Origin: Parcubacteria group bacterium GW2011_GWA2_40_23
GTDB lineage: Bacteria; Patescibacteriota; Patescibacteriia; UBA11705; JABHMO01
Assembly: GCA_000996245.1 (NCBI GenBank)
Contig: LBYP01000003.1
Coordinates: forward strand, 9,509-73,508
Direction: 5' to 3'
Length of the DNA: 64,000 nt
Every line of letters starts with the position of its first letter. Positions within the stretch are counted from its first letter, which is position 1. Below the pieces are notes generated by a model. That model was given only the letters and a program-made list of their open reading frames with translations. It was not told the origin of the DNA and ran no database searches. Positions 4,767 through 63,304 of this stretch are shown in pieces. Both the position numbers and the translations under genes were made by a program.

Positions 4767-4896
4767 ATGATTACTGAATTACAAATATCAGGAGGTTATG
4801 AATTATTAATTGCCGAGGCCCTTCTTCTAACACTGATTACTCGACAAGGCCACCTAATTGTTTTCTTGCTTTTTTGTTTTATTGATTATCGTTTAG

Positions 4897-9570: not shown

Positions 9571-9791
9571 GGGATTCCTCTATGTTGATAACGTTTGTAT
9601 TGGTACTCCCCACAAGTGAATATAGCACAGGGAAACATCTTTGTCAACTAAAAAGAGAGAAGGGTATAATAAAGCAAAAGAGAAATAAAACAGTAAATTT
9701 AAATAAAATGTTTATGTTTATAGGGACAGGTCGCGACCTGTCCCCGTGCAAAAAAAATAGCGCCGGTAGAAATGTTCCTACCAGCGCATTG

Positions 9792-10148
9792 TCAGCGACT
9801 ACGAATGAGCACTCCCTGGTTGCTGCCAACCGGGCCCGTGCAGGCGATCAGGTCGACGTTCTTGTTCCGGGCGTTTATGGCCCTGAAGGGGCAGGCCCAA
9901 GTGTCTTCCTGGGTGCACCCGAATTCTCGTGCGGGAGCCTTGCAGGCGCCCACCTGGATATCGGCGTACCCTTGCTTCTTCACCGCGGCGGAGACCGTCA
10001 CCGGATTCGGGGGCGATTCCATCGACTTCATGTACTTCACGAACGCAGGCACGGCCACCATCGCGACGACGGCCACCATCGCGACTACGATCATGAGCTC
10101 GATCAATGTGAAACCCTTCCTCATTCCGAACCCCCTTGTGTTGAGCAC
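9792..10148 (-). CDS. type IV pilin / pseudopilin-like protein (prepilin N-terminal cleavage-methylation motif)
   Basis: Leader MLNTRGFGMRKG, then FTLIELMIVVAMVAV (the G|FTLIE class III signal). 118 aa with 4 Cys. High GC. Confidence 0.55.
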   Translation of the reverse strand: MLNTRGFGMRKGFTLIELMIVVAMVAVVAMVAVPAFVKYMKSMESPPNPVTVSAAVKKQGYADIQVGACKAPAREFGCTQEDTWACPFRAINARNKNVDLIACTGPVGSNQGVLIRSR

Positions 10149-10182
10149 TATTGAGCGACGCTGTTGACAGTTGTCAGGAAGG

Positions 10183-11666: not shown

Positions 11667-13085
11667 ATGTCCGAAATAAACTCCAAAATCGCCCAAAACT
11701 CAATCATCCAACTAACAGGAAAACTAGTTAGTCTGGTTTTAGGTTTAGTGGCAGTGATGATAATGACTCGCTACCTCGGACAAGAGAAATTCGGATATTA
11801 TTATACGGTTGTAGCCTTCCTCCAATTTTTTGGAATACTTGTTGACTTTGGATTAACTTTGACGACAGTGCAAATGATTTCTGATTCGCGCTGGTCCCTT
11901 ACCCGTGTCATGAACTCAATCATGTCCTTTAGAATTATTACCGCGACAGCCTTCCTCGGACTGGCACCAATCATTGTTTGGTTTTTTCCATACAACAATT
12001 TTATTAAATGGGGCGTGTTAATTACAGTTTTTTCATTTTTCTGCATTACAGTTATTCAAGCATTGACTGGTGTCTTCCAACAAAAATTTAAAATGTTAGA
12101 AATAACAATCGCTGAAGTTGTTGGTCGAATCATTCTCGTCGCTGGTGTGGCCTTGACTGCTTATCTTGGTAAAAATATTTATTGGATTTTTTGGATGATT
12201 TCTATTGGCGCGGTTTTAAATTTGTTGATTGTATTTTTCTATTCACGAAAATATATTCAATGGAAATCAGAAGTTGATTTAGAAATTTGGAAAGTCTTGA
12301 TTCAAAAGTCTTGGCCAATTGCACTCGCTATTTCATTTAATTTGATTTATTTGAAGATGGATTCGATTATTCTTTCTTTGGTTAGAACACAATCAGAAGT
12401 TGGTTTGTATGGTGCAACCTATCGGGTGTTGGATATTCTGACAATGCTACCAGCCGTTCTTTTGGGAATTGCTTTGCCTGTTCTATCAAAATATTTTATT
12501 GATCATGAAATCGATAAGTTGAAAAATTTATTACAGAAAATTTTTGACGCGTTAATTATTTTTGCAGTGCCAATTGTTATTGGAACACAGATTGCCGGCC
12601 GCCCGATAATGGAATTTTTTGCGGGCAAAGATTTTTCTGTGTCCGGCGACATTTTAAGAGTTCTTATTTTGGCGGCCGGTGCCATTTTCGTCACCACTGT
12701 CTCTGGCTACGCTGTTATCGCTGTTCAAAAACAAAAACCCATGACTTGGGGTTATTTAACTGCAGCAGTTTTAACTCTCGCCGGTTATTTATATTTCATT
12801 CCTAAATTCGGTTATTGGGGTGCGGCCTGGATGACAGTTTTTTCTGAAATTTTAATTATGATCTGGTCAACTGTTCTTGTTTATAAAACAATTCAGTTTG
12901 TTCCCGGCTTAAATATTTTTTGGCGTTCGCTTGTTCCAACTCTTGTTATGACGATAGCTCTTTACTTGTGCCGAGATTTGCATGCCCTCTGGTTGATTTT
13001 GATTGCAATCATAGTTTATTTTCCATTATTATATTTATTCCGTGGTTTTGACCCCAAGCATTTTCGTGGTTTGTTGCGTTCGTAG
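11667..13085 (+). CDS. oligosaccharide flippase (Wzx / polysaccharide biosynthesis protein family, MOP superfamily)
   Basis: 472 aa, ~12-14 TM segments, N-terminal region typical of PF01943. Confidence 0.65.
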   Translation: MSEINSKIAQNSIIQLTGKLVSLVLGLVAVMIMTRYLGQEKFGYYYTVVAFLQFFGILVDFGLTLTTVQMISDSRWSLTRVMNSIMSFRIITATAFLGLAPIIVWFFPYNNFIKWGVLITVFSFFCITVIQALTGVFQQKFKMLEITIAEVVGRIILVAGVALTAYLGKNIYWIFWMISIGAVLNLLIVFFYSRKYIQWKSEVDLEIWKVLIQKSWPIALAISFNLIYLKMDSIILSLVRTQSEVGLYGATYRVLDILTMLPAVLLGIALPVLSKYFIDHEIDKLKNLLQKIFDALIIFAVPIVIGTQIAGRPIMEFFAGKDFSVSGDILRVLILAAGAIFVTTVSGYAVIAVQKQKPMTWGYLTAAVLTLAGYLYFIPKFGYWGAAWMTVFSEILIMIWSTVLVYKTIQFVPGLNIFWRSLVPTLVMTIALYLCRDLHALWLILIAIIVYFPLLYLFRGFDPKHFRGLLRS

Positions 13086-13127
13086 GGGCTTGTAGGGGCT
13101 CAAGAGATTGAGCCCAGGCTAAAATAT

Positions 13128-14549
13128 ATGTTATACATCCTCATTATCTTCGTACTCTTATTCGCCTACCTCGCCTGGCGCAAACCAATCTGGGCCCTGT
13201 CTTTTGTTGTTTTGGCTTTACCAACATATCTTCTGCGGTTCGAGATTCGAAATATTCCGACAACATTACTCGAAATCATGATTTTAGTTTTGTTTGTCGT
13301 CTGGCTTATCAAAACAATTTTAGAAAAACAAAAAATAACTTTTAGCAAATACAAATGGTGGATTCTGTTGTTGCTTGTCGTTGCGACAGTTTCCGCCTTT
13401 GTGACTTCGGTAGGGGCTCAAAATTTTGAGCCCCTACCGTGGGGAATTTGGAAAGCCTATTTTATTGAACCAATTTTATTCTTCTTGGTGTTTATCAATA
13501 CAGTAAAAACAAAAAAAGAGTGGAACTTAGTCGTTGGTGCGCTATGGTTATCCGCTTTTTTGGTAGCGATTCCCGCAATCATCCAAAAATTTACTGGCTG
13601 GGGAATACCAAATGAGTTTTGGCGAAATGAAGCTACTCGTCGCATCACTTCTTGGTATGGATTTCCCAATGCTGTTGGTTTATATCTGGCGCCAATAGGC
13701 ATGTTCTTTGCTGGATTGTTAATGCAAAATAAAATTAATGTTATTGAAAAATTTAAACAAAACGGTCTTGTAGGGATAGGTCGTGACCTGTCCCCCTTCC
13801 GGAAAAATTTTTGGAAAACAATATCAATTTTATTTTTATTTGTTTTAATTGTGCTGTCTTTAATTTTCGCTGGTTCAGAGGGAGCGCTCATCGGTCTTGT
13901 CGCCGGACTAATTTTCCTTGGTCTTGTCTATCCCTATCGTTTAACAAGAATTGCGACGCTAATATGTTTGCTTTCTTGCTTTCTTGCTTTCTTGATTGTC
14001 CCCAACTGGCGAGAATACGCCTCTGAGAAGTTTACTATGAGTGACCGCTCCGGCCAAATCCGCCAGCAACAGTGGAAGGAAACTTGGACGATGTTAAAAG
14101 AGGATCACCAAATTCTCGGAGGAGGTTTGGCGAATTATCAAACAGCGATTAAGCCGTATCATGCCGAAGGAATTTGGATTAAAGATAAAAATGATCATGA
14201 TTGGATTAATAAAATTAGAATAAGTGAAGAATTTAGAATCAAAAACTGGCAACCAACTGAAATTTATTTATATCCACATAATATTTTGTTAAATTTCTGG
14301 TCCGAAATCGGAATTTTAGGGGCTGGAATAATGTTAGTTTTAGTGCTAAAGTTGTTCCTCGGATACCTGCGAGTCAAAAGTCAGGAAAACAAAAGGATGT
14401 ATTTGATTTTAATGTCAGTTTTTGTCGTTATTCTTGTTCATGGTTTAGTCGACGTGCCGTATTTTAAAAATGATTTAAGTGTGTTTTGGTGGATGTTGTT
14501 TGGTCTAAGTGTGGTATTAATTAAAAGAAAAGAAATATTAATAAAGTAG
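13128..14549 (+). CDS. O-antigen ligase-like (Wzy_C) polytopic membrane protein
   Basis: 473 aa, many TM helices, a large loop with GSEGALIGLVAGLIFLG. Contains in-frame copies of two palindromic repeat families (see findings). Confidence 0.55.
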   Translation: MLYILIIFVLLFAYLAWRKPIWALSFVVLALPTYLLRFEIRNIPTTLLEIMILVLFVVWLIKTILEKQKITFSKYKWWILLLLVVATVSAFVTSVGAQNFEPLPWGIWKAYFIEPILFFLVFINTVKTKKEWNLVVGALWLSAFLVAIPAIIQKFTGWGIPNEFWRNEATRRITSWYGFPNAVGLYLAPIGMFFAGLLMQNKINVIEKFKQNGLVGIGRDLSPFRKNFWKTISILFLFVLIVLSLIFAGSEGALIGLVAGLIFLGLVYPYRLTRIATLICLLSCFLAFLIVPNWREYASEKFTMSDRSGQIRQQQWKETWTMLKEDHQILGGGLANYQTAIKPYHAEGIWIKDKNDHDWINKIRISEEFRIKNWQPTEIYLYPHNILLNFWSEIGILGAGIMLVLVLKLFLGYLRVKSQENKRMYLILMSVFVVILVHGLVDVPYFKNDLSVFWWMLFGLSVVLIKRKEILIK

Positions 14550-18728: not shown

Positions 18729-18932
18729 ACTAAAAAGTCGTCTAAAGAAGGAAGGGAATCAGTCGGTCACAAAATGTGACCAACTGAAAATGTTATTTGG
18801 GTGAGAATTAAAAAATCACAGTCCATCATTTAATCATGTAAATCATAGTACCGAAAGAAGGGTTAAATATTGCCCTTGCCTCGCCAACCAGTAATTGATT
18901 CAATAAAAAGGTTAATTTGGAAATAATATATT

Positions 18933-20039
18933 ATGGCACACGAAAAAATAGATTTAACAAAAAAAGAGCCAGTTACGGTTGAGCCAGAAGAAGGCGAAGC
19001 ACAGGTTTGGGTTCAAGCGCAACCGCCCTGGGAAGATTTCGCTTCAGTCAATGTTGATGAAGACGCCAAAAGAAAAGAAGCCACACCAGAACAGGCTAAA
19101 GAAATGGACAAACGGATGGCGGAACTTGGCGTCGCTTTTGCAGGATCAAAATTAAATTGGCATTTGGATGGAGCTTTAAATATTTCATTATTAGCGGGAA
19201 AATATATTGGTTATCACAAAGACGTTGATGTGTCAGTCGAGCAAGGAGAGTTAGCACAACTTGAAGCTCAACTTTTTGACCATGGTTATGGTCTTTTTTT
19301 GTCTAGTACCAACGAAGAAACAGGTGAACGTCAATTACGCCGCGTGGGATTTAAAGTTTTTCAAGATTCTGAAAAAGAACATATGCTGATTGCAGCCATT
19401 GATGAACGCAGAAAGTTGCGCGAGGATAAGGCTTTGAATTTCGTAGATGTTCATGTGTTAGCTAGAAATGAGGCGGGGCTAGCCTTAGGTTGTTTGGATG
19501 TAGTAATCCCCGAAAAGTGGACCAAACCATATCCAGTTGAATTCAACGGCCAACAAATAAATTTATCGCATCCAGGGAAAGTACTTTATTATAAATTACA
19601 TCAAGACAGAAATTATGATGTGACTGACGTTGAGCGGCTTATTAAAACAGGAAATTTAATGGTTGAAGATGTTGATGATGTCGGCGAAGTTTATGAAAAA
19701 GAATTTAAGGCAAATTTAGCAAGAGCACGTAAACGTTTTGCCCCAATCTCAGCAGAAATAAAATCTGGCACAACAGCAGAACAAATTGCTCAATTATTTT
19801 TTAATGATGAAGAATTTTCTCGCGCCGGCGAAGCGACAAGGCCGGCTTTTGTGGAATTGGGCAAGCAACTTATTGCTTCTGGCGATACTTCTGTCGAGAA
19901 TATGATAAAAATTGCTGTGGGCATATTCAAAGCCGAGGAACAAAACGATCAAATACGGGAGAAGATTGCAAAAATTAGGAAAGATGTTGAGGTGCAGGCG
20001 GAGTTGAAAAATGTTCGAGAGCAAATGTCTAAATCATGA
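18933..20039 (+). CDS. Lnu/ANT(2'')-like nucleotidyltransferase-domain protein with N- and C-terminal extensions
   Basis: NWHLDGALNISLLAGKYIGYHKDVDVSV resembles the lincosamide nucleotidyltransferase motif YWLDGGWGVDVL..HRDIDID. 368 aa. Confidence 0.4.
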   Translation: MAHEKIDLTKKEPVTVEPEEGEAQVWVQAQPPWEDFASVNVDEDAKRKEATPEQAKEMDKRMAELGVAFAGSKLNWHLDGALNISLLAGKYIGYHKDVDVSVEQGELAQLEAQLFDHGYGLFLSSTNEETGERQLRRVGFKVFQDSEKEHMLIAAIDERRKLREDKALNFVDVHVLARNEAGLALGCLDVVIPEKWTKPYPVEFNGQQINLSHPGKVLYYKLHQDRNYDVTDVERLIKTGNLMVEDVDDVGEVYEKEFKANLARARKRFAPISAEIKSGTTAEQIAQLFFNDEEFSRAGEATRPAFVELGKQLIASGDTSVENMIKIAVGIFKAEEQNDQIREKIAKIRKDVEVQAELKNVREQMSKS

Positions 20040-20319
20040 TTTTTGTGATTATATGATTGCCATGATTAAGATAGGTTGTTGTATCGGAAAAAGTTTGAAA
20101 TCATAATTATCATAAAAATCATAGTTAATCATAGTAATGGTAGTGTGCTTGAGTGAAATCATGGTAATCACAAAAATCATAGTTAATCATAGTAATGGTA
20201 GTGTACTTGAGTGAAATCATGGTAATCACAAAAATCATAGTTAATCATAGTAATGGTAGTGTTCCTGAGTAAAATCATGGTAATCATTTAATCATGTAAT
20301 CATAGTAAGCGAAGCGCAC
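20040..20319. repeat. array 1 of the ~58-bp tandem repeat (AAATCATGGTAATCACAAAAATCATAGTTAATCATAGTAATGGT plus a 14-17-nt semi-variable GC-richer segment), ~4 units
   Basis: The direct repeats can be read directly in the sequence. Further arrays at 21373-21651, 21934-22036, 23521-23794 and 24329-24621. Confidence 0.9.
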
Positions 20320-20889: not shown

Positions 20890-20958
20890 CATCGGGAAAA
20901 CTCGTCTAGATTATGCTTTTCATAATTATTTGATTACCATGATTAGGAAGAGAAAATC

Positions 20959-21372
20959 ATGATAAACGAAAAATATCCCGAGAGCGAATTAACTGAAAAA
21001 ATAATAGGTTGTACCATGGAGGTGCACAAGTATTTTGGTAATGGTTTTCAGGAAGTTATTTACCAAAGAGCATTGGCTATTGAAATGAGATCTCGGGGGC
21101 TGGTCTTTAGTCGCGAACATGAAATGGATATTTATTACAAAGGTACGCATATTGGAACAAGACGTGTCGATTTCTTTGTAGAAGATAAAATAATGGTTGA
21201 GTTGAAAGCCGTAATTACGCTAGAAGATGTTCATCTCGCACAAGCGCTAAATTATTTAGAAGCGTATAATATGGAAATAGGACTGTTGATAAATTTTGGA
21301 TCAAAAAGTTTAACATTTAGAAGGTTGATGAAGAAGAAACGAAAAATTAATCCATCGGAAAAACTCGTCTAA
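20959..21372 (+). CDS. GxxExxY-family protein (PD-(D/E)XK nuclease superfamily)
   Basis: GNGFQEVIYQRAL and EL...D core motifs. 137 aa. The C-terminal codons (PSEKLV) are encoded by the conserved repeat-boundary motif. Confidence 0.65.
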   Translation: MINEKYPESELTEKIIGCTMEVHKYFGNGFQEVIYQRALAIEMRSRGLVFSREHEMDIYYKGTHIGTRRVDFFVEDKIMVELKAVITLEDVHLAQALNYLEAYNMEIGLLINFGSKSLTFRRLMKKKRKINPSEKLV

Positions 21373-21651
21373 ATCATGATTTTTGTGATTATATGATTAC
21401 CATGATTACAACAAGCAGCTTTGTTGTGAAATCACAGTCATCATAAGAATCATAGTTAATCATAGTAATGGTGCTGTCCTCGAGCTAAATCATAGTAATC
21501 ACACAAATCATAGTTAATCATAGTAATGGTGGTGAGGTGCTCGAGCGAAATCATGGTAATCATCTAAATCATAGTTAATCATAGTAATGGTAGTTGGGTG
21601 AATAAATTAAAATCATAGTTATCATTTAATTATAGTAATCATAGACAAAGT
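21373..21651. repeat. array 2 of the ~58-bp AATCATAGT tandem repeat (~4 units)
   Basis: Direct reading of the sequence. Confidence 0.9.
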
Positions 21652-21933: not shown

Positions 21934-22036
21934 TTTATAATTTAATCATGGTAATCATATAAATCATGTTAATCATAGTAATGGTGTTTGAGCGAAAATC
22001 ATAGTAATCACATAAATCATAGTTAATCATAGCTTT
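21934..22036. repeat. array 3 of the AATCATAGT tandem repeat (~1.5 units)
   Basis: Direct reading of the sequence. Confidence 0.85.
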
Positions 22037-23520: not shown

Positions 23521-23794
23521 GTTTTATCTTTTTCTAAGGAATATGACCAAATAAATTTTTGTGCTATTTCTGAAGAAGTTTTTCATGATTAAAAAATCAT
23601 AGCCCATCAAATAATCATAGTAATGGTGCTTGAGCGAAATCATAGTCCATCATTTAATCATAGTTAATCATAGTAATGGTGGCTGTGTGTTCGAGCGAAA
23701 TCATAGTAATCACACAAATCATAGTTAATCATAGTAATAGTGCTGTCCTCGATCTAAATCATAGTCATCACATAAATCATAGTTAATCATAGTA
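23521..23794. repeat. array 4 of the AATCATAGT tandem repeat (~4 units)
   Basis: Direct reading of the sequence. Confidence 0.9.
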
Positions 23795-24328
23795 ATGGTC
23801 ACAATCACAAAAGCTCACCCAGGCGCCGAAAAGCAGATTTCTGCTTTAGCCGATGATTATTGTCTAAAAGATAAAACAGAAAAAATCAGTAATTCTGGTT
23901 TTATTGTTTTTCCTAAACCGCCAGCCAAGTTTTTGAAGCGGATTAATCATTGTCAGTATTTTTATGTGGCTAAAGAAGGGCACAAGTTAGTGGGATATTT
24001 ATTGGCTTATACATTGAAAGAAATGGAAGATCTGAATGAAAACTTTTCTTATTTTGATGATCTCAAAAATGCGAGCGAAGGCAAGGATATAGTTTTTTTA
24101 GATCAAATAGTAGTTAGTCGAGAGTATACTGGTCGTGGTCTTGGACAAAACTTATTAGATCATTTACTAAGCAACTTGAAGGATAAACATGTTTTTGGAT
24201 TTATACTTCATGCACCAACTAGAAATCAAAGATCGATAAATTTTTTTCAATCAAAAAACAACTGGCAGTTAATTAAAGAAGTAAGTATCGAAGGCATGCT
24301 CTGTGGGCTTTACGGTTTCAAATATTAG
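23795..24328 (+). CDS. GNAT-family N-acetyltransferase
   Basis: VVSREYTGRGLGQNLLDHLL (acetyl-CoA binding motif). The ATG lies inside the last repeat unit (TAATGGTCAC). Confidence 0.55.
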   Translation: MVTITKAHPGAEKQISALADDYCLKDKTEKISNSGFIVFPKPPAKFLKRINHCQYFYVAKEGHKLVGYLLAYTLKEMEDLNENFSYFDDLKNASEGKDIVFLDQIVVSREYTGRGLGQNLLDHLLSNLKDKHVFGFILHAPTRNQRSINFFQSKNNWQLIKEVSIEGMLCGLYGFKY

Positions 24329-24621
24329 TTGATAGAAAATCATGGTAATCATTTAATCATAGTTAATCATAGTAATGGTGGCGTTCCTGAGCTAAATCAT
24401 GGCAATCATTAAATCATAGTTAATCATAGTAAGGGTGCTGTTCCCGAGCTAAATCATAGTCATCACAGAAATCATAGTTAATCATAGTAATGGTGCTGTT
24501 CTCGAGCTAAATCATGGCAATCATTAAATCATAGTTAATTATGGTAATGGTGATGTGTCTGAGCTAAATCATGGTAATCACACAAATCATAGTTAATCAT
24601 AGTCCCGATAGTTAAGTTTTT
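24329..24621. repeat. array 5 of the AATCATAGT tandem repeat (~5 units)
   Basis: Direct reading of the sequence. Confidence 0.9.
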
Positions 24622-27838: not shown

Positions 27839-28429
27839 GCCCAGTTGGACATTTCAATTTAGCAAATTATTGCTGTTCCGTCAACTCCATCCGATTTGCT
27901 CCATCCGATTTGCGAGCCTGCCTGCCGGCAGGCAGGGAGCACCTTTGTTAAGAAAGCGACGTTTACCCTGCACCTAAAGGGCACACTTTATGGTACAGGG
28001 CGGCAATCTCTTAATCAATCCCAAGGAAGCAATCTCCGACATCTTGATGATCGTTAGTTAGTAGGGGCTCAAGATATTGAGCCCCTGGATCTAAATTATC
28101 TTTGCCGTTTACCCCGAATCCAAAGGTCATTGCGAACCCAGCTCTGGGCAGGGGTGAAGCAATCTACCAATTCTCAATGATTTTGTTCTGCTAGAGAACA
28201 AAAGCTTTTTATCGCTGTTATTTATGATTGTTTCATTTTCTTGTTCCTCATAATGCGGTAAATGAAAATGTCATAGGGGTTCAAGACATTGAGCCCTCAT
28301 GGAGTTTTGGTCAAAAATACATTTTTCTGGTATAATTTTGTTTGTAGAAGAGTTTGTAGGGGTTCAAGATATTGAACCCTGCCACAAACAACATTTCAAT
28401 ATTTTTATTAAAAATTATTTTTAAAATTT

Positions 28430-33173: not shown

Positions 33174-33596
33174 ATGAAAAACTTTATTTATAATCCACGT
33201 AATTTGAAAATCTTAAGCTTATTATTTATTATTGTTTGTAGTTTTGTTTTTGCTAGTGTTGGTCAGGCGGGGCTCGATTTAAATGGTCCACTAGAAAAGG
33301 CAGGTAAGGGTATTTACGGAGCAGATGCCTTGCCCACAGCAGATCAAATGCCGATTACTATTGGTAAAGTTATTGGAGTAGTTCTTTCCTTAGTTGGTAT
33401 AATTTTGGTAATCATAATCGTTTATGCCGGTTTTACTTGGATGACTGGTGGTGGTGATCCAGAAAAAATTAAAGATGCCAAGAGTTGGATGCTTAATGCC
33501 GTGATTGGTTTGTTGATTTGCCTCGTTGCTTATAGCTTGTCATCTTTCGTGGTGACTAAAATTTTTGAAGCAACAACTGCCACTAAGACACCATGA
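33174..33596 (+). CDS. T4SS pilin-like protein, copy 6
   Basis: TWMTGGGDPEKIKDAKSWMLNAVIGL, nearly identical to copy 7. Confidence 0.5.
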   Translation: MKNFIYNPRNLKILSLLFIIVCSFVFASVGQAGLDLNGPLEKAGKGIYGADALPTADQMPITIGKVIGVVLSLVGIILVIIIVYAGFTWMTGGGDPEKIKDAKSWMLNAVIGLLICLVAYSLSSFVVTKIFEATTATKTP

Positions 33597-34063
33597 AAAA
33601 AATAGGTTTTAAATATTTAATTAATTTTAGTATGATGAAAAAATTCTTCTCTTTGTCATTATTATTGATAATGACAGCCATCCTTGTATCTAATCTTTGG
33701 GTGGTCCCCGCTGTTTCAGCTAGTAATCTTCAATCCAACATACAAGGCAGTATGGACCAGGTGACAAAGGCAGCTGGGTATGGAGATGCTACAACCGGCA
33801 TATCAGATTTGCCAACAATGGTAGGTAATATAATTGGTATTGGTTTAGGTCTCCTTGGTATGGTCATGGTGATAATTATTATTTATTCTGGTTACCTTTG
33901 GATGACTGGTGGTGGTGACCCAGAAAAAATTAAAGATGCTAAGAGTTGGATGTTAAATGCAGTAATTGGTTTAATTATTCTTTTAGCTGCTTATTCGATT
34001 TCAGACTTTGTTATCTTAAAGGTTTTTTGCGCCACAAGCGACAATACTGCTGCTGGTTGCTAG
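33593..34063 (+). CDS. T4SS pilin-like protein, copy 7
   Basis: LWMTGGGDPEKIKDAKSWMLNAVIGL. ATGA overlap with copy 6. Confidence 0.5.
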   Translation: MKKIGFKYLINFSMMKKFFSLSLLLIMTAILVSNLWVVPAVSASNLQSNIQGSMDQVTKAAGYGDATTGISDLPTMVGNIIGIGLGLLGMVMVIIIIYSGYLWMTGGGDPEKIKDAKSWMLNAVIGLIILLAAYSISDFVILKVFCATSDNTAAGC

Positions 34064-35199: not shown

Positions 35200-35518
35200 A
35201 AATTATCAAAACATAAATAAACTTAATATAAACTTATCAGATATTATTAAATGATTCAATTAACTTATACACACGAAGAAGGAAACAAACAATCAATTAA
35301 TCAATAAAACAAAAAGCAAAATCAATGGTACGTGTAAGTCGCGACTTACACGTACGGGATTGCTAATCACCCGTAGGTGCAGGTCGCGACCTGCACCTAC
35401 GGGAAGGATGAATCCACTCGCAAAAAGAGCCTTGATTTTATGCCTGAATTTTGGTATGGTGTGAATGTAATTTAGAAGATTCAAAAGGGGTGATTAACTA
35501 TTAATCAGGCTATTTTTT

Positions 35519-41284: not shown

Positions 41285-41374
41285 AAAAAATTGTACGTAA
41301 CAACGCATTTGCGTTGTAGGGAACAAAAATTTTTGTTCCCTACCGTCCATACGGACGGTTCGTACAATTTTTTT
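41285..41374. repeat. ~85-bp nested palindromic element, copy A
   Basis: Outer stem AAAAAATTGTACG...CGTACAATTTTTTT. Inner hairpins GTAGGGAAC-aaaaattttt-GTTCCCTAC and GTCCATACGGAC. Confidence 0.8.
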
Positions 41375-41419
41375 ATTAAAATTAACGACCGGCTTCGATG
41401 AGGAAGTCGGTCGGGTCGG

Positions 41420-45300: not shown

Positions 45301-45420
45301 CATAATAGAGTTACCATGCACGTCGCTGACGTTCTTTACGGCGTGGCCATGGGGGAAGATGGTGTGTCAAAAACATTGTCGTTGAAGTTGACAGAAGCGC
45401 AGGCAACCGTGAAAAAATAA
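42367..45420 (+). CDS. smc: chromosome segregation protein SMC
   Basis: MHLQRIEIQGFKSF, Walker A GPNGSGKSN, long coiled coils, hinge, C-terminal LSGGE signature and Walker B DEVEAALD. The ORF track starts 9 codons earlier at a TTG. Confidence 0.85.
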   Translation: MHLQRIEIQGFKSFAQKTVFDFPEYSNHDKNAKSITAVVGPNGSGKSNVSDAIRWVLGEQSLKLIRCKKSDDVIFGGSEKKARQGFAEVSLFMNNEDKELPVDFSELVITRRVYRNGETEYLINRRAVRLFDVLILLAKANFGQRSYSIIGQGMVDHIINISAFERKEFFDEATGVKQYQIKRDQAVNRLRRSRENLDQTNKVLAELEPRLRLLTRQIKKLEMRKELEKELRDLQKKYYNYLWTKMQADRQREDEKFGIKDSFKKDLEVRLNEVQNKLAFLARQESRKDIFNNLQKDYNKLQSERNDLMKELTMVKGKMSLEYVKFGKQNLSWLEDKKDELGRRIKEITESANNLKVKLDYRTETLLEQEGKFNELTGNLVVLRNNLQVAEENLLNLKSGAKNSHYLDAVKAILRQKDSIKGIYGTVSQLGATQAMYETALAIAAGNRLSAVVVQSDEIAVRCINFLKERKLGSVIFIPLNKIQASAPNKDSKELLVANGAIGFAVELLSFDEKYKKAFQFVFGSTIVVDNLENAKTIGVGRERMVTLDGDVMEKTGMMRGGYRREGSVSWFILVDDKFSGSQEELMREIAILKNKIEESTRERESLELQLNESRVEKQINETKTKGLANDLVDLQKEKEKIEVEINENKIAPDDQDKYLKDLDARRKGFELKLEKADEEVADIRQKLDVFNLEEEKKKEEVFAMQSEMQKYQMKLNEVSNEVNTINITIAKLETKREDLEKEAIQEVGPEFKFTKSDIEALNVDELWFNISKLRNSLEQIGGIDAEIVEEHKEVSERYEFLSAQVKDLDKAIGDLEKIVGELDELINKQFDSSFKKINKAFEKYFEKIFNGGKAKLELVQKEKPTKAEAEVVQAETGEAVAQDESDEELPEEKSKLLNTGIDIMVAPPNKKISNIAVLSGGERTMTSLALICAIIESNPSPFIVMDEVEAALDEENSHKFAAILQELSYKAQFIIITHNRVTMHVADVLYGVAMGEDGVSKTLSLKLTEAQATVKK

Positions 45421-45503
45421 AAAATGTACGCGCAACACGTCTGTGTTGTAGGGAACAAAAATTTTTGTTCCCTACCGTCCAAATGGACGGGGCGTACATT
45501 TTT
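45421..45503. repeat. ~85-bp nested palindromic element, copy B (near-identical core to copy A)
   Basis: GTAGGGAACAAAAATTTTTGTTCCCTACCGTCCAAATGGACGG flanked by the AAAATGTACG...CGTACATTTTTT outer stem. Confidence 0.8.
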
Positions 45504-47053
45504 TATTGTTTCCACAGCTCCTCAAAATAATCATTGTACGATTGCACCAAATGTTCATTTTCAGAAATAAAGAAGATGGGCTTTTTTTTGTCTGCCCAAT
45601 TAGCAATGACGAGTTTTTTGCCATAGAGCCAGACAACATTGGGGTTGCCTATTTTTGAAAGATTATATTTTGTGCGACTCCATGGATATTTGGTAATGGC
45701 ATGGCCTTGGACACTACGATCAACAATATTGCGCCAAATAATCCCCGGAGTATTTTTGGCTTTGGCTTCAATCTTTTTAAAAAGTTCAGGATAATAATCG
45801 ATAAAATATCCGCGGGCGCCAATCAAGCGTAATTCCTTAGTGTCAAGCGCTTCAAACCAAATTTTCTGCAGAGCTTCTGGACCTTGAAGTGTGTACGTTT
45901 CTTGCTGCCAAATATTATCAAAATAATTTTTGAATGATTCAGCCATGATTGGATTATCGAAAGAGATAACAGTTGGAACTTTTTCGTAAAGAATGAAAAA
46001 AATCTTATTGTTATAAATATTTATCTGCATCGGTATGGGGGTGGTGTTGATGTATTTTCTTAAAAAGCTTACTTTGCCTTCGGGATCCCCACATTTGGCA
46101 AATTTTTCTTTTAAATTATCATATGATTCTTGAAAACAAAGCATTTTTGTTATTACACCTTTTTTTATTCTTTCGGTGTGAAATTTGTCGTAGAGTTCAT
46201 GGAAACCAGGTGGATAATCTTTGCCTAAAGCACCGAGAACATAATAATGTTCCCCAGGTTTTAGTGCATTGAGCTGATCATAAATAGCTTCTTCAACAGC
46301 ATCTAATCCAGTTTTAGTGATGGTTCGTTGATTCCAAAAATAGTTGAAGTATTTTTTAAAGCCCTCAACAATTTTTTTGTCTTTGACGCTAATCGTAATG
46401 GGGTTATCACTCATCAACCCGATATTTAAAAGATCATCAATAAAATCAAACCAAAAAGGGGAATCGATATTGAAGGGTAGAAAGCGAGCTTTGCTCAATG
46501 GCAAGGAGTTTCTCCACGCCAAGCCTTCTTTGACGAGTGGGTCAGATGAAAGCTCATATAAAATTTTTTGACTGATTTTTTTCTTTTCACGTTCTTTGTG
46601 AAAACGCTTCCAAAATGATTCCATTTCTGGTTTTGATGTTAAATTTGTTGCGCCAAGAACATAAAACTCACTACCAGCTGGATAATTTAAAACGCGATTG
46701 CGAGCTCTTTTAATCCCTTCAACGCCCGCAAAGATTTGGATGTCGCCAGCTTCTGTGGTGTGTCTTTTGTGTAGTTCAATAATAATTTCCTTCGCTGTTT
46801 CTTCTTGATCAAGAACGTTTTCGAGAATCGATTCAGGATTGTTGGGAATGAACTCAGCTACGCCACGAGAGGTGAGTTTTGAAACCAACTTTTTTTTAAG
46901 TAATGATTCAAGAGACGTATAAACTAGGTTACGATGTAATCCCGTAAGTTCAATTATTTTACCAGCGCGGCTTTTCCCGTTTTCAATTAGGTATAAATAT
47001 ACAGTGATTTCATTAGGTGAAAAGCCTAGTTGTTGTAGTTTGTCTTTTATCAT
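45503..47053 (-). CDS. TrmB-family transcriptional regulator with a triplicated C-terminal domain
   Basis: N-terminal wHTH (ITVYLYLIENGKSRAGKIIELTGLHRNLVYTSL). Three ~150-aa repeats ending FKKYFNYFWNQ, FKNYFDNIWQQ and YNDYFEELWKQ. Confidence 0.55.
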   Translation of the reverse strand: MIKDKLQQLGFSPNEITVYLYLIENGKSRAGKIIELTGLHRNLVYTSLESLLKKKLVSKLTSRGVAEFIPNNPESILENVLDQEETAKEIIIELHKRHTTEAGDIQIFAGVEGIKRARNRVLNYPAGSEFYVLGATNLTSKPEMESFWKRFHKEREKKKISQKILYELSSDPLVKEGLAWRNSLPLSKARFLPFNIDSPFWFDFIDDLLNIGLMSDNPITISVKDKKIVEGFKKYFNYFWNQRTITKTGLDAVEEAIYDQLNALKPGEHYYVLGALGKDYPPGFHELYDKFHTERIKKGVITKMLCFQESYDNLKEKFAKCGDPEGKVSFLRKYINTTPIPMQINIYNNKIFFILYEKVPTVISFDNPIMAESFKNYFDNIWQQETYTLQGPEALQKIWFEALDTKELRLIGARGYFIDYYPELFKKIEAKAKNTPGIIWRNIVDRSVQGHAITKYPWSRTKYNLSKIGNPNVVWLYGKKLVIANWADKKKPIFFISENEHLVQSYNDYFEELWKQ

Positions 47054-54649: not shown

Positions 54650-54896
54650 CGGCCATTTTCACCATGGAGGTATTCATCATGGTCCAGGCCAGTCTGACGT
54701 GCTGCGTGGTGGTGGGATAGCCGGGAGGCCTTCCACGCACCGGCTCCGACAGCGGAGCAGACGACGCTAAGAAAGTAGGTACTTGGAGGTCCCTATCTGG
54801 CACCTCCAGACGAGCGTCGTCTCCACCTCCCTGTTTTACAGGGATGCAGCAAGTGCTTGGGGCGGATTTCTCGTGAGATCCGCCCCGCTTTTTTTG
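54650..54896 (+). ncRNA. GC-rich (~57%) structured RNA candidate of ~245 nt between a promoter and a strong intrinsic terminator; class unresolved (6S/SRP-like/other)
   Basis: Multiple hairpins with a GGGA tetraloop. A long-range pairing GCAGACGACGCU / AGCGUCGUCU. Terminator GGGGCGGATTTCTCGTGAGATCCGCCCC plus a T7 run. The overlapping minus-strand ORF 54618-54932 is probably spurious. Confidence 0.45.
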
Positions 54897-55048
54897 TTTT
54901 ATATGTGTTTCAATCATAAAGGGTGGGGACAAATTGTCCCTACCCTTGGTACTATTGATTACTTGAGATGTCTACAAATTGTAGATAGCTGAAAGGCAAA
55001 TTCATTTATAACTTGTAGTGTTTAGAGAAACCTAATGTAGGTGAAAAA

Positions 55049-56726: not shown

Positions 56727-57196
56727 ATTGATTTGCTATTTATATTTGTAATCGGTAAACTGATAACAGTGATCGCAATCTTTTCCGGAAGGAGGCGCTC
56801 ATGCTGATCGTTCGTCAACTTACCTCGAAAGGGGGTGATCCTCTCTACGGGTCCGTCTAAATTGGAATAATGCGGGAGACAAGACGGCTCCATTATAAAG
56901 GGTAAACAACAGAAGGGCTTCGGTCTTTGGCCGCGTGAGACGGCCCAGGGGAAGAGACCTTGATCTCGTTTTACATTCGTCAGATTGCTACATAGCGATC
57001 TGACGATTTATTTATACTACTAATTACGAATCTGCTACTTATCTACTAATAATTTCGTACGATTTGCGAGGAGCTAAGCCTTAAATATTTAAAGCGACGA
57101 AGCAATCTCTTGATCGAATACTGAAAAAACGGCTAGTGGTTGCTTCGTCTTGTCATCTAATGTGGCTTGAAAAACTAATTGTATTTTTTAGATGTT

Positions 57197-61212: not shown

Positions 61213-61296
61213 TAAAAATATACGGACCGCCCATTCGGACGGTAGGGATAGGTCGAGACCTGTCCCTACAACGCAGCGCGTTGATCCGTATATTTT
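61213..61296. repeat. ~85-bp nested palindromic element, copy C (inverted orientation, different central hairpin)
   Basis: AAAAATATACGG...CCGTATATTTTTT outer stem. Encloses CCATTCGGACGG and GTAGGGATAGGTCGAGACCTGTCCCTAC. Confidence 0.75.
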
Positions 61297-63105
61297 TTAT
61301 TCTTCTGTTTCTTCAACTACACCAGGACGTCTATTTTTATTGCGAGCATTTTTAGTTAAGCCTTTTTTACGGAGACGGACAAAGTGTGGAGTAATTTCTA
61401 GATATTCATCTTCCTTCATGATACTAAGTCCTTTTTCAATGGTAAGTTCAATCGGGGTAGTAAGTTCAATTGCTTCATCCGCATTAGAGGAACGCATGTT
61501 GGTTAGGTTTTTGCCCTTGATTGGATTTACTTCCATGTCATTGCCTTTGGCAGTATTACCAATGACCATGCCTTCATAAACTTGTGTTGTTGGAGCAGTA
61601 TATAATTGGCCGCGATTTTGTAAGTTAGCCAGAGAGAAGGCAAGAACTTTTCCAGTGGCCATAGAAATCATAGAGCCGAATTCAGTTTTTTCAATGTCAC
61701 CAGCATAAGGTCTAAAACCAAGGTTATGACTGCATAAAATTCCTTCTCCACGAGTGTCAACAACGAATTCAGCACGATAGCCAAGCAATCCACGGACAGG
61801 GATGTCAAATAATAATCTGGAGTTGCCATTATGGGTTGTGAGTTTTGTCATGATACCTTTGCGGCGTGAAATTTTATCAATAATAGTTCCGGTTAAATTA
61901 TCTGGAATATCAATGGTAATTTCTTCGTATGGCTCTAACTTTTGGCCGTTTTCTTCTTTAATAATTACAGTTGGTTGTGAAACTTGAAGTTCATAACCTT
62001 CGCGGCGCATGTTTTCTAAAAGAATAGCTACATGCAATTCTCCGCGACTGCTAATTTTATAATAAGTTGTTGGAGAAAAATCTACTTTAAGACCGACGTT
62101 AACTTCTAATTCTTTTTGTAAACGTTCTTTAATTTGGTTGTTGGTGACGTATTTGCCATCTTGTCCAGCAAAAGGTGAGTCATTTACCAAGAAGGATAAA
62201 GAAATAGTTGGTTCATCAATTTTAATGTGTGGGAGTGGTTCTTGATTTTCGTTTTCACAAATAGTATCGCCAATATAAATATTAGGAATACCAGCGATCA
62301 AAGCAATATCACCAGAATAGGCTGTTTGAACTTCTTGTCGTTTTAATCCATGAAAAGTAAAAAGTTTAGTTACCTTTGATGTTGAAATTCCATCTTGTTT
62401 AATAATGGTTACTTTTTGGCCTACTGAAATTTTGCCATTATAAATTCTGGCAATCGCTAAACGGCCTAAAAAATTATCATAAGCTAAGTTGAAAGGTTGT
62501 GCGGTCAACTCTTTGTTTAAAGCTTCTTCAGTTGTGGCTGGTTGGACGTATTCTAAAATAGTATCAAGTAAAGGATTTAAATTTTCTCCAGGAATAGCCG
62601 GGTCGAGCGTGCATTTGCCTTGCTTAGCGATGGCATAGAGAGTAGGAAATTTTAGTTGTTCATCATTAGCTCCAAGATCAAGGAAAAGTTCATAGATTTC
62701 TTCTTTAACCTCAGAAATTCGAGCGGCTGGTTTATCAATTTTATTAATAACAACAATTGGCTTAAGACCGAGTTCAATAGATTTTTTCAAAACAAATTTA
62801 GTCTGTGGCATTGGTCCTTCCTGTGCATCAACTAAAAGAACAACAGAGTCGATAGAACGCAAAACGCGCTCAACTTCAGAACCAAAATCAGCATGACCGG
62901 GAGTATCGATAATGTTAATTTTTACGTCTTTATAAATAACAGACGTATTCTTTGAGTAAATTGTAATGCCGCGTTCTTGCTCCAATTTATTGCTGTCCAT
63001 GCTTTCTTCCGCCTCGCACATGCCGTTTTGTTTCATGAGTGCGTCGGTGAGAGATGTCTTGCCATGGTCAACGTGGGCAATAATGGCGATGTTTCGTATT
63101 TCCAT
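61297..63105 (-). CDS. typA: translational GTPase TypA/BipA
   Basis: [24 protein letters not shown]... 603 aa from the internal Met; the ORF track begins 10 codons upstream. Confidence 0.85.
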
Positions 63106-63170
63106 AGTATTAATTTGATGACAATAGAATATCAAGAAAAGGGAATTTTGTCAATGTTTGTGATAATGCA

Positions 63171-63304
63171 TCCGATTTGCGAGGAGTCTCGCCCTAGCGG
63201 GACGACGTGGCAATCTCTTAATCATTCTTAAACAATCTTCTGCGACAGTTGCAAAAGATTGCTTCGTCGTAGAAATAGTTAAGATAGGACTCCTCGCAAA
63301 TCGA
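63171..63304. mobile_element. MITE-like ~134-bp element with 16-17-bp terminal inverted repeats (TCCGATTTGCGAGGAGTC ... GACTCCTCGCAAATCGA)
   Basis: Inverted termini read directly. Internal motif GCAATCTCTTAATCA. Partial copies at 27885-28016 and 57058-57130. Confidence 0.45.

What the first reader, a model, noticed from the sequence alone, without database searches (positions are those of the whole stretch)
13083..13795. Palindromic repeat families, with two copies embedded in-frame inside the O-antigen-ligase-like gene
Family 1 is GTAGGGGCTCAAGATATTGAGCCCCTAC. Copies lie at 13083-13117 (intergenic, with a tandem half-copy), 13410-13437 (inside ORF 13128-14549, encoding VGAQNFEPLP) and three times in the 27839-28429 spacer (28062, 28274, 28356). 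Family 2 is GGGAYAGGTCGNGACCTGTCCC. Copies lie at 9723-9745, 13774-13795 (inside the same ORF, encoding GIGRDLSP), 35370-35403 (variant GTAGGTGCAGGTCGCGACCTGCACCTAC, beside a second palindrome GTGTAAGTCGCGACTTACAC) and 61243-61270. The intragenic copies keep the reading frame open. This is reminiscent of REP/MITE-type insertions being tolerated in loop regions of a membrane protein.
Basis: seen in the sequence. Interest (0 to 1): 0.55.

Follow-up and report, generated by a model that had tools for sequence, protein, structure and literature searches.

The report
GTAG-footed REP hairpins inside a gene
The palindromes are real and are 28-base "double-foot" REP elements, a known kind of hairpin repeat tied to RAYT transposases; two copies sit in frame in loop regions of a membrane-protein gene of a candidate-phyla-radiation bacterium, which is a new host but not a new phenomenon.

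Summary
Observation confirmed. Interpretation supported and made more specific.

- **One superfamily.** There are 14 copies in the window, including a GTAC-foot variant, a 21-nt copy and a third stem type.
- **The intragenic copies are insertions.** Both Wzy-gene copies are lineage-specific: +5 aa and +10 aa relative to orthologues of 71-80% identity. Both fall in loops of an AlphaFold model.
- **Why they are in frame.** Only the GTA-GGG reading frame of the first family lacks a stop codon on either strand.
- **Wide distribution.** Core-only scans recovered the same 28-mers, foot included, in MAGs named for more than 15 taxonomic groups.
- **RAYT link.** In 21 of 240 fetched loci the 28-mer lies inside a RAYT-like gene, between the HUH and Tyr motifs. 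Quentin et al. 2018 describe this for TnpA_REP subclass 2.4 and its "double foot" REPs. Di Nocera et al. 2013 describe intragenic GTAG REPs.
- **CPR context.** RAYTs of this type are common in Patescibacteria. None lies in about 80 kb of this organism.
- **Terminator positions.** Three copies form the core of A-run/T-run hairpins at convergent gene ends. Close relatives carry different REPs at the same sites.

Verdict: new member of a known kind; modest interest.

The parts
13128..14549 (+). Wzy_C (O-antigen ligase/polymerase-like) membrane protein gene, 473 aa, host of two REP copies
   Evidence: Pfam PF04932, E=8.7e-19, residues 236-401. 100% match to a protein of Parcubacteria group bacterium GW2011_GWC2_39_14. 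AlphaFold mean pLDDT 81.4.
13410..13437 (+). Perfect 28-nt double-foot REP GTAGGGGCTCAAAATTTTGAGCCCCTAC, in frame (VGAQNFEPL, residues 95-103)
   Evidence: Absent from all 19 aligned orthologues, net +15 nt. Loop between helices 76-94 and 103-125, pLDDT <50 at 97-100. RNA fold -28.4 kcal/mol, z -9.3.
13770..13797 (+). REP GTAGGGATAGGTCGTGACCTGTCCCCCT, 3' foot degenerate, in frame (VGIGRDLSP, residues 215-223)
   Evidence: A 30-nt insertion relative to L003 and to all orthologues except P0004/L001. L001 has GTAGGGACAGCTCTGGAGCTGTCCCC at the same site, with a compensatory change.
13082..13119 (+). Half copy GTAGGGGCTT followed by a degenerate family-1 REP, in the 42-nt spacer upstream of the Wzy gene
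   Evidence: The TAG at 13083-13085 is the stop codon of ORF 11667-13085. The REP core GGCTCAAGAGATTGAGCC is conserved at the orthologous spacer in L001 and L003.
9720..9747 (.). Family-2 REP with both feet degenerate (ATAGGGACAGGTCGCGACCTGTCCCCGT), 25 nt upstream of ATG 9772
   Evidence: Absent at the orthologous place in L001.
28061..28088 (.). Family-1 REP, 3' foot degenerate, in the 590-nt divergent spacer
28273..28300 (.). Degenerate family-1 REP (ATAGGGGTTCAAGACATTGAGCCCTCAT)
28356..28383 (.). Degenerate family-1 REP (GTAGGGGTTCAAGATATTGAACCCTGCC)
35328..35355 (.). Perfect 28-nt palindrome with a GTAC foot (GTACGTGTAAGTCGCGACTTACACGTAC)
   Evidence: An identical copy lies about 2 kb beyond the right end of the window (L245 15995-16022).
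35370..35403 (.). 34-nt perfect palindrome containing the REP GTAGGTGCAGGTCGCGACCTGCACCTAC (35373-35400)
   Evidence: A sister sequence, GTAGGTGCGGGTCGCGACCCGCACCTAC, lies next to a RAYT gene in a Patescibacteria genome (L247).
41289..41375 (.). Composite four-way hairpin at the 3' end of the PBP gene: an outer stem (A-run+GTACG / CGTAC+T-run) encloses three hairpins, the central one being the REP at 41316-41343
   Evidence: Fold -46.4 kcal/mol, z -10.3. Conserved in L248 with a different apex. Replaced by an ordinary terminator in L251.
45417..45506 (.). Second copy of the composite (REP at 45448-45475), between convergent SMC and TrmB-like genes
   Evidence: 60 nt are 92% identical to the 41313-41372 stretch. 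Fold -54.3 kcal/mol, z -10.9. Relatives L248 and L250 have only a simple 28-nt GTAC/GTAT-foot REP here.
61214..61297 (.). Composite of the same architecture in the opposite orientation, with family-2 REP 61242-61269 as central arm, between convergent genes
   Evidence: Fold -42.4 kcal/mol, z -7.9.
54923..54943 (.). Short 21-nt double-foot copy GTGGGGACAAATTGTCCCTAC (GTGG...CTAC)

Best explanation
**What they are.** The palindromes are 'double-foot' REP elements. Each is a 28-nt hairpin-forming repeat with a 5' GT[AG]G foot, usually three G-C pairs at the base of the stem, a variable self-complementary interior, and the complement of the foot at the 3' end.

**How they spread (inferred).** Elements of this type are the substrates of REP-associated tyrosine transposases (RAYT, also called TnpA_REP; HUH/Y1 nucleases). 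These enzymes recognise the foot and the hairpin on single-stranded DNA. This step comes from the literature and from the physical REP-RAYT linkage seen in other genomes. It was not shown for this organism.

**The two copies in the Wzy-like gene (shown).** They are lineage-specific insertions in loop regions. They persist because only insertions of a length divisible by three, read in the GTA-GGG frame, avoid a stop codon. They most likely behave as neutral passengers that add 5 and 10 residues.

**The copies outside genes (shown and inferred).** Most sit at gene ends. Three form the core of A-run/hairpin/T-run structures between convergent genes, and related genomes have different REPs at the same places. 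Those observations are shown. That these structures act as bidirectional transcription terminators is inferred.
For: - **Anatomy.** The window holds 14 copies, most with a GTAGG foot; 94% of stem cells are paired, and 10 of 12 stem pairs change on both sides across subfamilies.
- **Not chance.** Shuffles gave 0.00 expected matches.
- **Insertions.** Both intragenic copies are absent from orthologues.
- **Loop location.** Shown by the AlphaFold model.
- **Frame logic.** Frame 1 starts with TAG, and frame 2 of family 1 contains TGA.
- **Foot recovered without being searched for.** Family 1 in genomes: 121 matches, 70 with GTA, 77 with TAC, 58 with both. Family 2 in metagenomes: 100 of 132 for GTA and 100 of 132 for TAC.
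- **RAYT linkage.** An HMM of the recurrent neighbouring protein hit 30 ORFs (E<=1e-3) in 27 of the 240 loci; in 21 loci the 28-mer lies inside the hit ORF.
- **RAYT identity.** The protein matches NF047646 REP_Tyr_transpos at E=1.8e-15. Homologues carry PF01797 and are named RayT by JGI. A profile hits PDB 4ER8 TnpArep over the HUH and Tyr motifs.
- **Presence in CPR.** Many homologues are from Patescibacteria, Buchananbacteria and Pacebacteria. Two CPR REPtrons were read directly.
- **Literature.** Double-foot REPs and in-frame REPs inside subclass 2.4 tnpA_REP genes are described in PMC6006769. GTAG REP superfamily, intragenic REPs and TAG stop donation are described in PMC3733652.
- **Turnover at orthologous sites.** Shown.
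Against: - No RAYT gene or remnant was found in about 80 kb of this organism's contig, nor in the 13.8-23 kb fetched from each of four relatives (L001, L003, L248, L251). Mobilisation in this genome is therefore unproven, and the rest of the genome could not be read.
- The RAYT-like proteins score below NCBIfam's curated cut-off (57 against 80 bits). Three of them gave no Pfam hit at 1e-3 when scanned here.
- Neither intragenic site is a clean 28-nt insertion. The net changes are +15 and +30 nt, with replaced neighbouring bases, so the insertion chemistry cannot be read from them.
- Some copies have a GTAC foot, not GT[AG]G.
- The simple terminator scan did not call the composite elements.
- The covariation set was chosen from sequences already seen to be palindromic, which inflates the pairing figures.
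Confidence: 0.8

Rival explanations
1. The hairpins are host-selected structural elements (terminators or mRNA stabilisers). On this view they arise and are kept by ordinary mutation plus compensatory change at each site, with no mobile element involved.
For: - Three copies are the core of A-run/hairpin/T-run structures at convergent gene ends.
- A more distant relative, L251, has ordinary terminators at the same two sites.
- The L248 and L250 hairpins at the SMC end could derive from one another by compensatory changes.
- The site-2 copy differs from L001 by a compensatory pair.
Against: - Identical 28-mers recur, foot included, in contigs of 31-67% GC named for more than 15 taxonomic groups.
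- Identical 28-mers lie inside RAYT genes.
- A 60-nt module is 92% identical at two unlinked sites in the window, and it is absent from one of those sites in two close relatives.
- Copies inside a coding region have no terminator role.
- Exaptation as terminators is compatible with the main explanation. It does not rival it.
Confidence: 0.1
2. The intragenic palindromes are ancient coding sequence that happens to be self-complementary.
For: Both copies are read in an open frame, and the protein is otherwise well conserved.
Against: - Orthologues of 47-81% alignment identity lack the residues: a 5-aa gap at site 1 and a 10-aa gap at site 2.
- The same nucleotide 28-mer occurs in non-coding DNA of the same window and in unrelated genomes.
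Confidence: 0.02
3. They are classical MITEs, that is, deletion derivatives of a DDE-transposase insertion sequence.
For: They are short, repeated and dispersed. An IS256-type transposase (PF00872) lies about 5 kb beyond the right end of the window.
Against: - The whole element is a single 28-nt hairpin, not a body flanked by inverted repeats.
- No target-site duplication is visible at the filled sites when compared with empty ones.
- The linked protein elsewhere is an HUH/Y1 enzyme.
Confidence: 0.03
4. They are operator sites for a dimeric DNA-binding protein (a regulon), or DNA-uptake signals.
For: They are perfect dyad symmetry elements with conserved outer bases. Some lie upstream of genes (9720, 28061-28383, 35328-35400).
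Against: - The interior varies freely while self-complementarity is kept, which points to a folded single strand, not a duplex reading.
- Copies lie inside genes and at 3' ends.
- Only 5-6 outer bases are shared, which is too few for an uptake signal.
Confidence: 0.03

Closest known systems
'Double foot' REP sequences of TnpA_REP subclass 2.4 (Quentin et al. 2018, PMC6006769), equivalent to RAYT group 4 of Bertels et al. 2017
   Same: - 5' GT[AG]G with its reverse complement at the 3' end.
- Three G-C pairs at the bottom of the stem.
- REP copies inserted in frame inside the tnpA_REP gene between the HUH and Tyr motifs.
- A patchy distribution across phyla.

All of these were seen here.
   Different: - The host here is a candidate-phyla-radiation bacterium. 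The paper's text does not mention Patescibacteria or Parcubacteria.
- No cognate RAYT lies in the 80 kb available.
- Some copies have a GTAC foot.
- Some copies are nested in a four-way composite.
GTAG-tagged REP superfamily, including SMAG elements and intragenic REPs (Di Nocera et al. 2013, PMC3733652)
   Same: - GTAG tag.
- Subfamilies with complementary stem changes.
- Preference for convergent and unidirectional gene ends.
- The TAG of the foot donating a stop codon.
- REPs lying wholly inside genes and adding short peptides.

   Different: - In that paper the tag is an unpaired motif at one end of the repeat. Here it is paired with its complement.
- The paper notes many intragenic REPs in replication and repair genes. 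Here the host gene encodes a surface-polysaccharide membrane protein.
Rickettsia palindromic elements (RPE)
   Same: Palindromic repeats inserted in frame in protein-coding genes and tolerated at the protein level. Di Nocera equates RPE-4 and RPE-6 with CGTC REPs.
   Different: They belong to the CGTC-tagged superfamily, not the GTAG one. That paper found CGTC repeats not associated with transposase genes.
E. coli REP/BIME with TnpA_REP (PDB 4ER8)
   Same: An HUH/Y1 enzyme family recognising a GTAG-footed hairpin. The profile of the CPR-type RAYTs aligns to 4ER8 over both catalytic motifs.
   Different: - E. coli REPs are imperfect hairpins with an unpaired foot, arranged as BIMEs.
- The proteins are only distantly related: E=9.7e-5 by profile, no hit by single sequence.

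Membership tests
Double-foot GTAG REP (TnpA_REP subclass 2.4 type) | Short (20-40 nt) self-complementary repeat able to form a hairpin | tested here: met
   The units are 28 nt, and six copies are perfect palindromes. Fold z-scores run from -2.1 to -10.9.
Double-foot GTAG REP (TnpA_REP subclass 2.4 type) | [quoted passage not shown] | tested here: met
   - Both feet are intact in 13410, 35373, 41316, 45448, 61242 and 54923.
- Only the 5' foot is intact in 13092, 13770, 28061 and 28356.
- Both feet are degenerate in 9720 and 28273.
- 35328 has a GTAC foot.

Double-foot GTAG REP (TnpA_REP subclass 2.4 type) | Three consecutive G-C pairs at the bottom of the stem | tested here: met
   GGG...CCC follows the foot in families 1, 2 and 3. 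It does not in the GTAGGT and GTACGT variants.
Double-foot GTAG REP (TnpA_REP subclass 2.4 type) | Many dispersed copies per genome, mostly intergenic | tested here: inconclusive
   The window holds 14 copies in 64 kb, 12 of them outside genes. The rest of the genome could not be read.
Double-foot GTAG REP (TnpA_REP subclass 2.4 type) | Cognate RAYT gene in the same genome, flanked by or containing the REP (REPtron) | tested here: inconclusive
   None was found in the window, nor in the 8.8 kb and 7.2 kb beyond its two ends. The feature is met in other genomes for the identical 28-mers and in CPR genomes.
Double-foot GTAG REP (TnpA_REP subclass 2.4 type) | The associated protein is an HUH/Y1 enzyme of the RAYT class | tested here: met
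   - HUH motif (MPNHxHGI) and Tyr motif (WQRxFYDxIIR) are present.
- NF047646 matches at E=1.8e-15, but below the curated cut-off.
- PF01797 is precomputed for homologues.
- A profile hits PDB 4ER8.

This applies to proteins of other genomes, not of this window.
Double-foot GTAG REP (TnpA_REP subclass 2.4 type) | Cleavage and strand transfer of the REP by its RAYT | not testable with these tools
   This needs biochemistry.
Classical MITE | Terminal inverted repeats around an internal body, with a target-site duplication | tested here: not met
   The element is one hairpin. No duplication appears at filled sites compared with empty ones.
Intrinsic (rho-independent) terminator | G+C-rich hairpin followed by a T-run at a gene's 3' end | tested here: inconclusive
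   A-run and T-run flank the composites at 41289-41375, 45417-45506 and 61214-61297, between convergent genes. The consensus scan did not call them, because its stem and loop limits do not fit. There are no transcript data.

The most novel reading that the evidence does not exclude
Three linked claims make up this reading.

1. Each RAYT clade carries its own 28-nt REP in frame, as a conserved segment of the protein. Enzyme and substrate would then travel together as one unit.
2. That would explain why the same two 28-mers are sequence-identical in MAGs named for more than 15 taxonomic groups, including CPR bacteria and one archaeal MAG.
3. In this CPR lineage the REPs have become the standard hairpin of bidirectional terminators. 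They are swapped or nested at orthologous sites between genomes only about 15% diverged, apparently by insertion into the apex of existing hairpins.
Probability: 0.35. Interest if true: 0.5.

Novelty: new member of a known kind. Interest (0 to 1): 0.3.

Why it matters
- **Annotation.** REP-encoded peptides such as VGAQNFEPL and VGTGRDLSL appear inside real proteins. They also extend spurious ORFs in CPR and other MAGs: one assembly calls a 190-aa ORF straight through the 9720 copy.
- **Genome biology of small genomes.** Ultra-small, streamlined CPR genomes still host REP/RAYT systems and appear to use the hairpins at gene ends.
- **Assembly quality.** The perfect palindromes can seed fold-back misassemblies in metagenomes; one such case was seen.
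- **A possible next study.** The cross-phylum identity of the 28-mers, together with their conserved in-frame position in the RAYT genes, offers a tractable system for asking how a transposase and its substrate co-migrate.

Tried and rejected
- **Rfam.** At gathering thresholds it found only two tRNAs in the window.
- **First k-mer self-comparison.** It was swamped by AT-rich chance matches, so I replaced it with blastn-short.
- **Full-text literature search for the 28-mers or their peptides.** Nothing relevant. RAYT together with Patescibacteria gave only false word matches.
- **Pfam scan of three RAYT-like ORFs typed in from loci.** No hit at 1e-3.
- **Single-sequence search of PDB.** No hit; the profile search was needed.
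- **tblastn and HMM searches for a RAYT or a RAYT remnant.** In the window, its flanks and relatives they returned only the palindrome-encoded peptides.
- **Look-up of the BipA-like ORF from its TTG start.** It failed, probably because the start is wrong.
- **Consensus terminator scan.** It did not call the composite elements.
- **CRISPR.** Rejected because the copies are solitary and not spaced in arrays.
- **tRNA-like reading of the four-way composites.** Rejected: ARAGORN and Rfam are silent, and the outer stem is 13 bp.
- **Genome scan row limit.** A genome-wide REP count and RAYT search for it were therefore not possible.
Full report
**1. The observation**

Dinucleotide-preserving shuffles of the window gave 0.00 expected matches for either family pattern.

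Listing every GTAGG and CCTAC in the window shows that the two families share their ends. Almost all copies are 28-nt units of the form GTAGG-N18-CCTAC. Three further items had been missed:
- a third stem type, GTAGGGAACAAAAATTTTTGTTCCCTAC, at 41316 and 45448;
- a GTAC-foot variant at 35328;
- a 21-nt copy at 54923.

I aligned 14 units from the window and two relatives. In that alignment 94% of stem cells are paired, and 10 of 12 pairs show changes on both sides, against 6.6 ± 1.1 in shuffles. One caveat applies: these units were picked because they looked palindromic.

**2. The organism and the gene**

ORF 13128-14549 is 100% identical to a protein of Parcubacteria group bacterium GW2011_GWC2_39_14. 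The window has 39% G+C and carries dnaA and rnpA. The ORF has a Wzy_C domain at residues 236-401.

**3. Are the intragenic copies insertions?**

Yes, both are.

- *Site 1.* In a 20-sequence alignment, VGAQNFEPLP replaces ES-RLAA with a 5-residue gap in every orthologue.
- *Site 2.* There is a 10-residue gap in every orthologue except the closest one, P0004.
- *DNA level.* The net gains are +15 nt and +30 nt.
- *The P0004 locus (L001).* At site 2 it has GTAGGGACAGCTCTGGAGCTGTCCCC where the window has GTAGGGATAGGTCGTGACCTGTCCCC. One stem pair has changed from G-C to C-G. The palindrome has therefore been kept since the two lineages split.

An AlphaFold model (mean pLDDT 81.4) places site 1 in the loop between helices 76-94 and 103-125, with pLDDT below 50 at residues 97-100. 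It places site 2 at the helix break 218-220, in a block of mean pLDDT 62.

The open frame has a simple cause. Frame 1 of every unit begins with TAG, and frame 2 of family 1 contains TGA. Because the unit is its own reverse complement, only the GTA-GGG frame can survive inside a gene.

**4. What the elements are**

*Scans with the core only.* I scanned a species-representative genome collection with the family-1 core alone, GGGGCTCAANNNNTTGAGCCCC. The hits are MAGs named for more than 15 taxonomic groups, from Bacteroidia to Chloroflexi, plus a Methanosarcinales MAG. The foot was not in the pattern, yet 70 of 121 matches are preceded by GTA, 77 are followed by TAC, and 58 have both. Locus G+C ranges from 35 to 67%. 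The family-2 core in metagenomes behaved the same way: 100 of 132 for GTA, 100 of 132 for TAC, and G+C of 31-63%.

*A recurrent neighbouring protein.* All-against-all clustering of ORFs from the first set of loci turned up a 190-230 aa protein with an MPNHxHGI (HUH) motif and a WQRNYYEHIIR (Tyr) motif. A profile built from it found 30 ORFs (E<=1e-3) in 27 of the 240 loci. In 21 loci the 28-mer lies inside the hit ORF, read as VGAQNFEPL or VGTGRDLSL.

*Identity of that protein.*
- It matches NCBIfam NF047646, 'REP-associated tyrosine transposase', at E=1.8e-15. The score of 57 bits is below the curated 80.
- It has 1195 homologues. Many carry PF01797, and JGI names them RayT.
- A profile of 22 homologues aligns to E. 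coli TnpA_REP (PDB 4ER8) over both catalytic motifs, E=9.7e-5.
- In that 22-sequence alignment the REP-encoded VGTGRDLSL segment is present in nearly all members.

**5. Comparison with the literature**

Quentin et al. 2018 describe exactly this for TnpA_REP subclass 2.4 (PMC6006769):
- 'double foot' REPs with 5' GT[AG]G and 3' C[TC]AC;
- three G-C pairs at the stem bottom;
- a patchy distribution across phyla.

Di Nocera et al. 2013 describe the GTAG superfamily, its subfamilies with complementary stem changes, REPs entirely inside ORFs, and GTAG termini that donate TAG stop codons (PMC3733652). The last point also holds here: the TAG of the half copy at 13083-13085 terminates the Polysacc_synt gene 11667-13085.

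**6. The candidate phyla radiation (CPR)**

Named homologues of the family-2-type RAYT are largely from Patescibacteria, Buchananbacteria and Pacebacteria. I read two CPR loci directly:
- L246 has the family-2 28-mer in frame in its RAYT.
- L247 has a REP inside its RAYT. The sister sequence of window 35373 lies 180 nt downstream, and again 7 kb away.

For this organism itself I found no RAYT or remnant in the window, in 8.8 kb to its left, or in 7.2 kb to its right. I could not read the rest of the genome. I found no paper in the held library on REP/RAYT in CPR.

**7. What the extragenic copies do**

Three copies are the central arm of 84-90-nt structures. In each, an A-run plus GTACG pairs with CGTAC plus a T-run, and this outer stem encloses three hairpins. 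All three lie between convergent genes. Their fold z-scores run from -7.9 to -10.9.

Relatives clarify their history.
- *PBP gene end.* A genome with 95% SMC identity (L248) has the same composite with a different apex. A 75% relative (L251) has an ordinary terminator there.
- *SMC/TrmB site.* L248 has a plain AAAAAAA-GTACGGACAGGTCTAGACCTGTCCGTAC-TTTTTTT. L250 has GTATGTGCAGGTCGCGACCTGCACGTAC. The window has the same GTACG...CGTAC outer stem with about 48 extra bases inside. Those bases belong to a 60-nt stretch that is 92% identical to the copy at the PBP site.

This is a gain at the apex of an existing hairpin since the split from L248. It fits a wider pattern: 10-15% of the cross-phylum copies sit at the apex of longer perfect hairpins, against 0.4% expected, and one REP sits inside another REP. 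That these structures act as bidirectional terminators is my inference. The simple scan did not call them, and there are no transcript data.

**8. Verdict**

The kind is known. The CPR host, the four-way composites and the turnover at orthologous terminator sites are modest additions.

The main open point is whether this genome has its own RAYT.

Noticed in passing
window 18813-18850, 20027-20310, 20890-20945, 21353-21644, 21944-22032, 23612-23799, 24336-24603: Arrays of a 57-61-nt tandem repeat, built on AATCATAGT sub-units. They fill successive spacers upstream of + strand genes. Short matches to the unit also occur in relative L001.
   Followed up: partly
window 27917-27936; L001 55-78 and 7603-7626; L246 16190-16209: A further palindrome family without a GTAG foot, CCTGCCTGCCGGCAGGCAGG. 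L001 has a 20-nt insertion containing it that L003 lacks. In the window it is nested inside another repeat.
   Followed up: partly
window 27880-27915, 28005-28040, 28120-28165, 57060-57115, 63169-63224, 63251-63303; L001 and L003 spacer upstream of the Wzy gene: Another dispersed intergenic family, CGATTTGCGAGGAG...[variable insert]...CGACGAAGCAATCTC, that can pair with itself. It occurs in both orientations. I found no name for it.
   Followed up: no
window 54650-54900: A G+C-rich stretch of about 250 nt in a 39% G+C genome. It ends in a strong terminator, GGGGCGGATTTCTCGTGAGATCCGCCCCGCTTTTTTT. It may be a structured RNA. Rfam gave only weak sub-threshold matches.
   Followed up: partly
window 13083-13085: The TAG of a REP half copy is the stop codon of the Polysacc_synt (flippase-like) gene 11667-13085. 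About 130 nt of spacer present in relatives L001 and L003 is missing here.
   Followed up: yes
L153 (metagenome contig ERZ724517 NODE-120), centred on 4770-4797: The contig is a perfect inverted duplication of at least 1.9 kb around a family-2 REP. This is most likely a fold-back assembly or amplification artefact seeded by the palindrome.
   Followed up: no
P0135, L141 1170-1796, L094 1555-2277, L159 1925-2566: Some RAYT genes carry tandemly multiplied, partly decayed REP-derived segments, for example VGTGRDAAS x3, GTGHDDA x4 and PTPVEVQH x3. These lengthen the linker between the HUH and Tyr motifs.
   Followed up: no
window 9582-10154 versus 9772-10167: One assembly's gene call (L243 18352-18924) reads a 190-aa ORF straight through the REP at 9720 in its open frame. 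The orthologue in L001 starts at the ATG equivalent to 9772, in another frame. The long ORF is probably a REP-assisted over-extension.
   Followed up: partly
window 33437-33511 and 33898-33972: A 75-nt direct repeat, 92% identical, shared by two adjacent small genes (33174-33596 and 33593-34063). They are probably tandem paralogues.
   Followed up: no
L245 18069-18875 and 20188-21137 (about 4-7 kb beyond the right end of the window): An IS256-type transposase (PF00872) and a second Wzy_C gene lie just outside the window. Two more GTAC-foot palindromes lie at L245 15951-16022.
   Followed up: no
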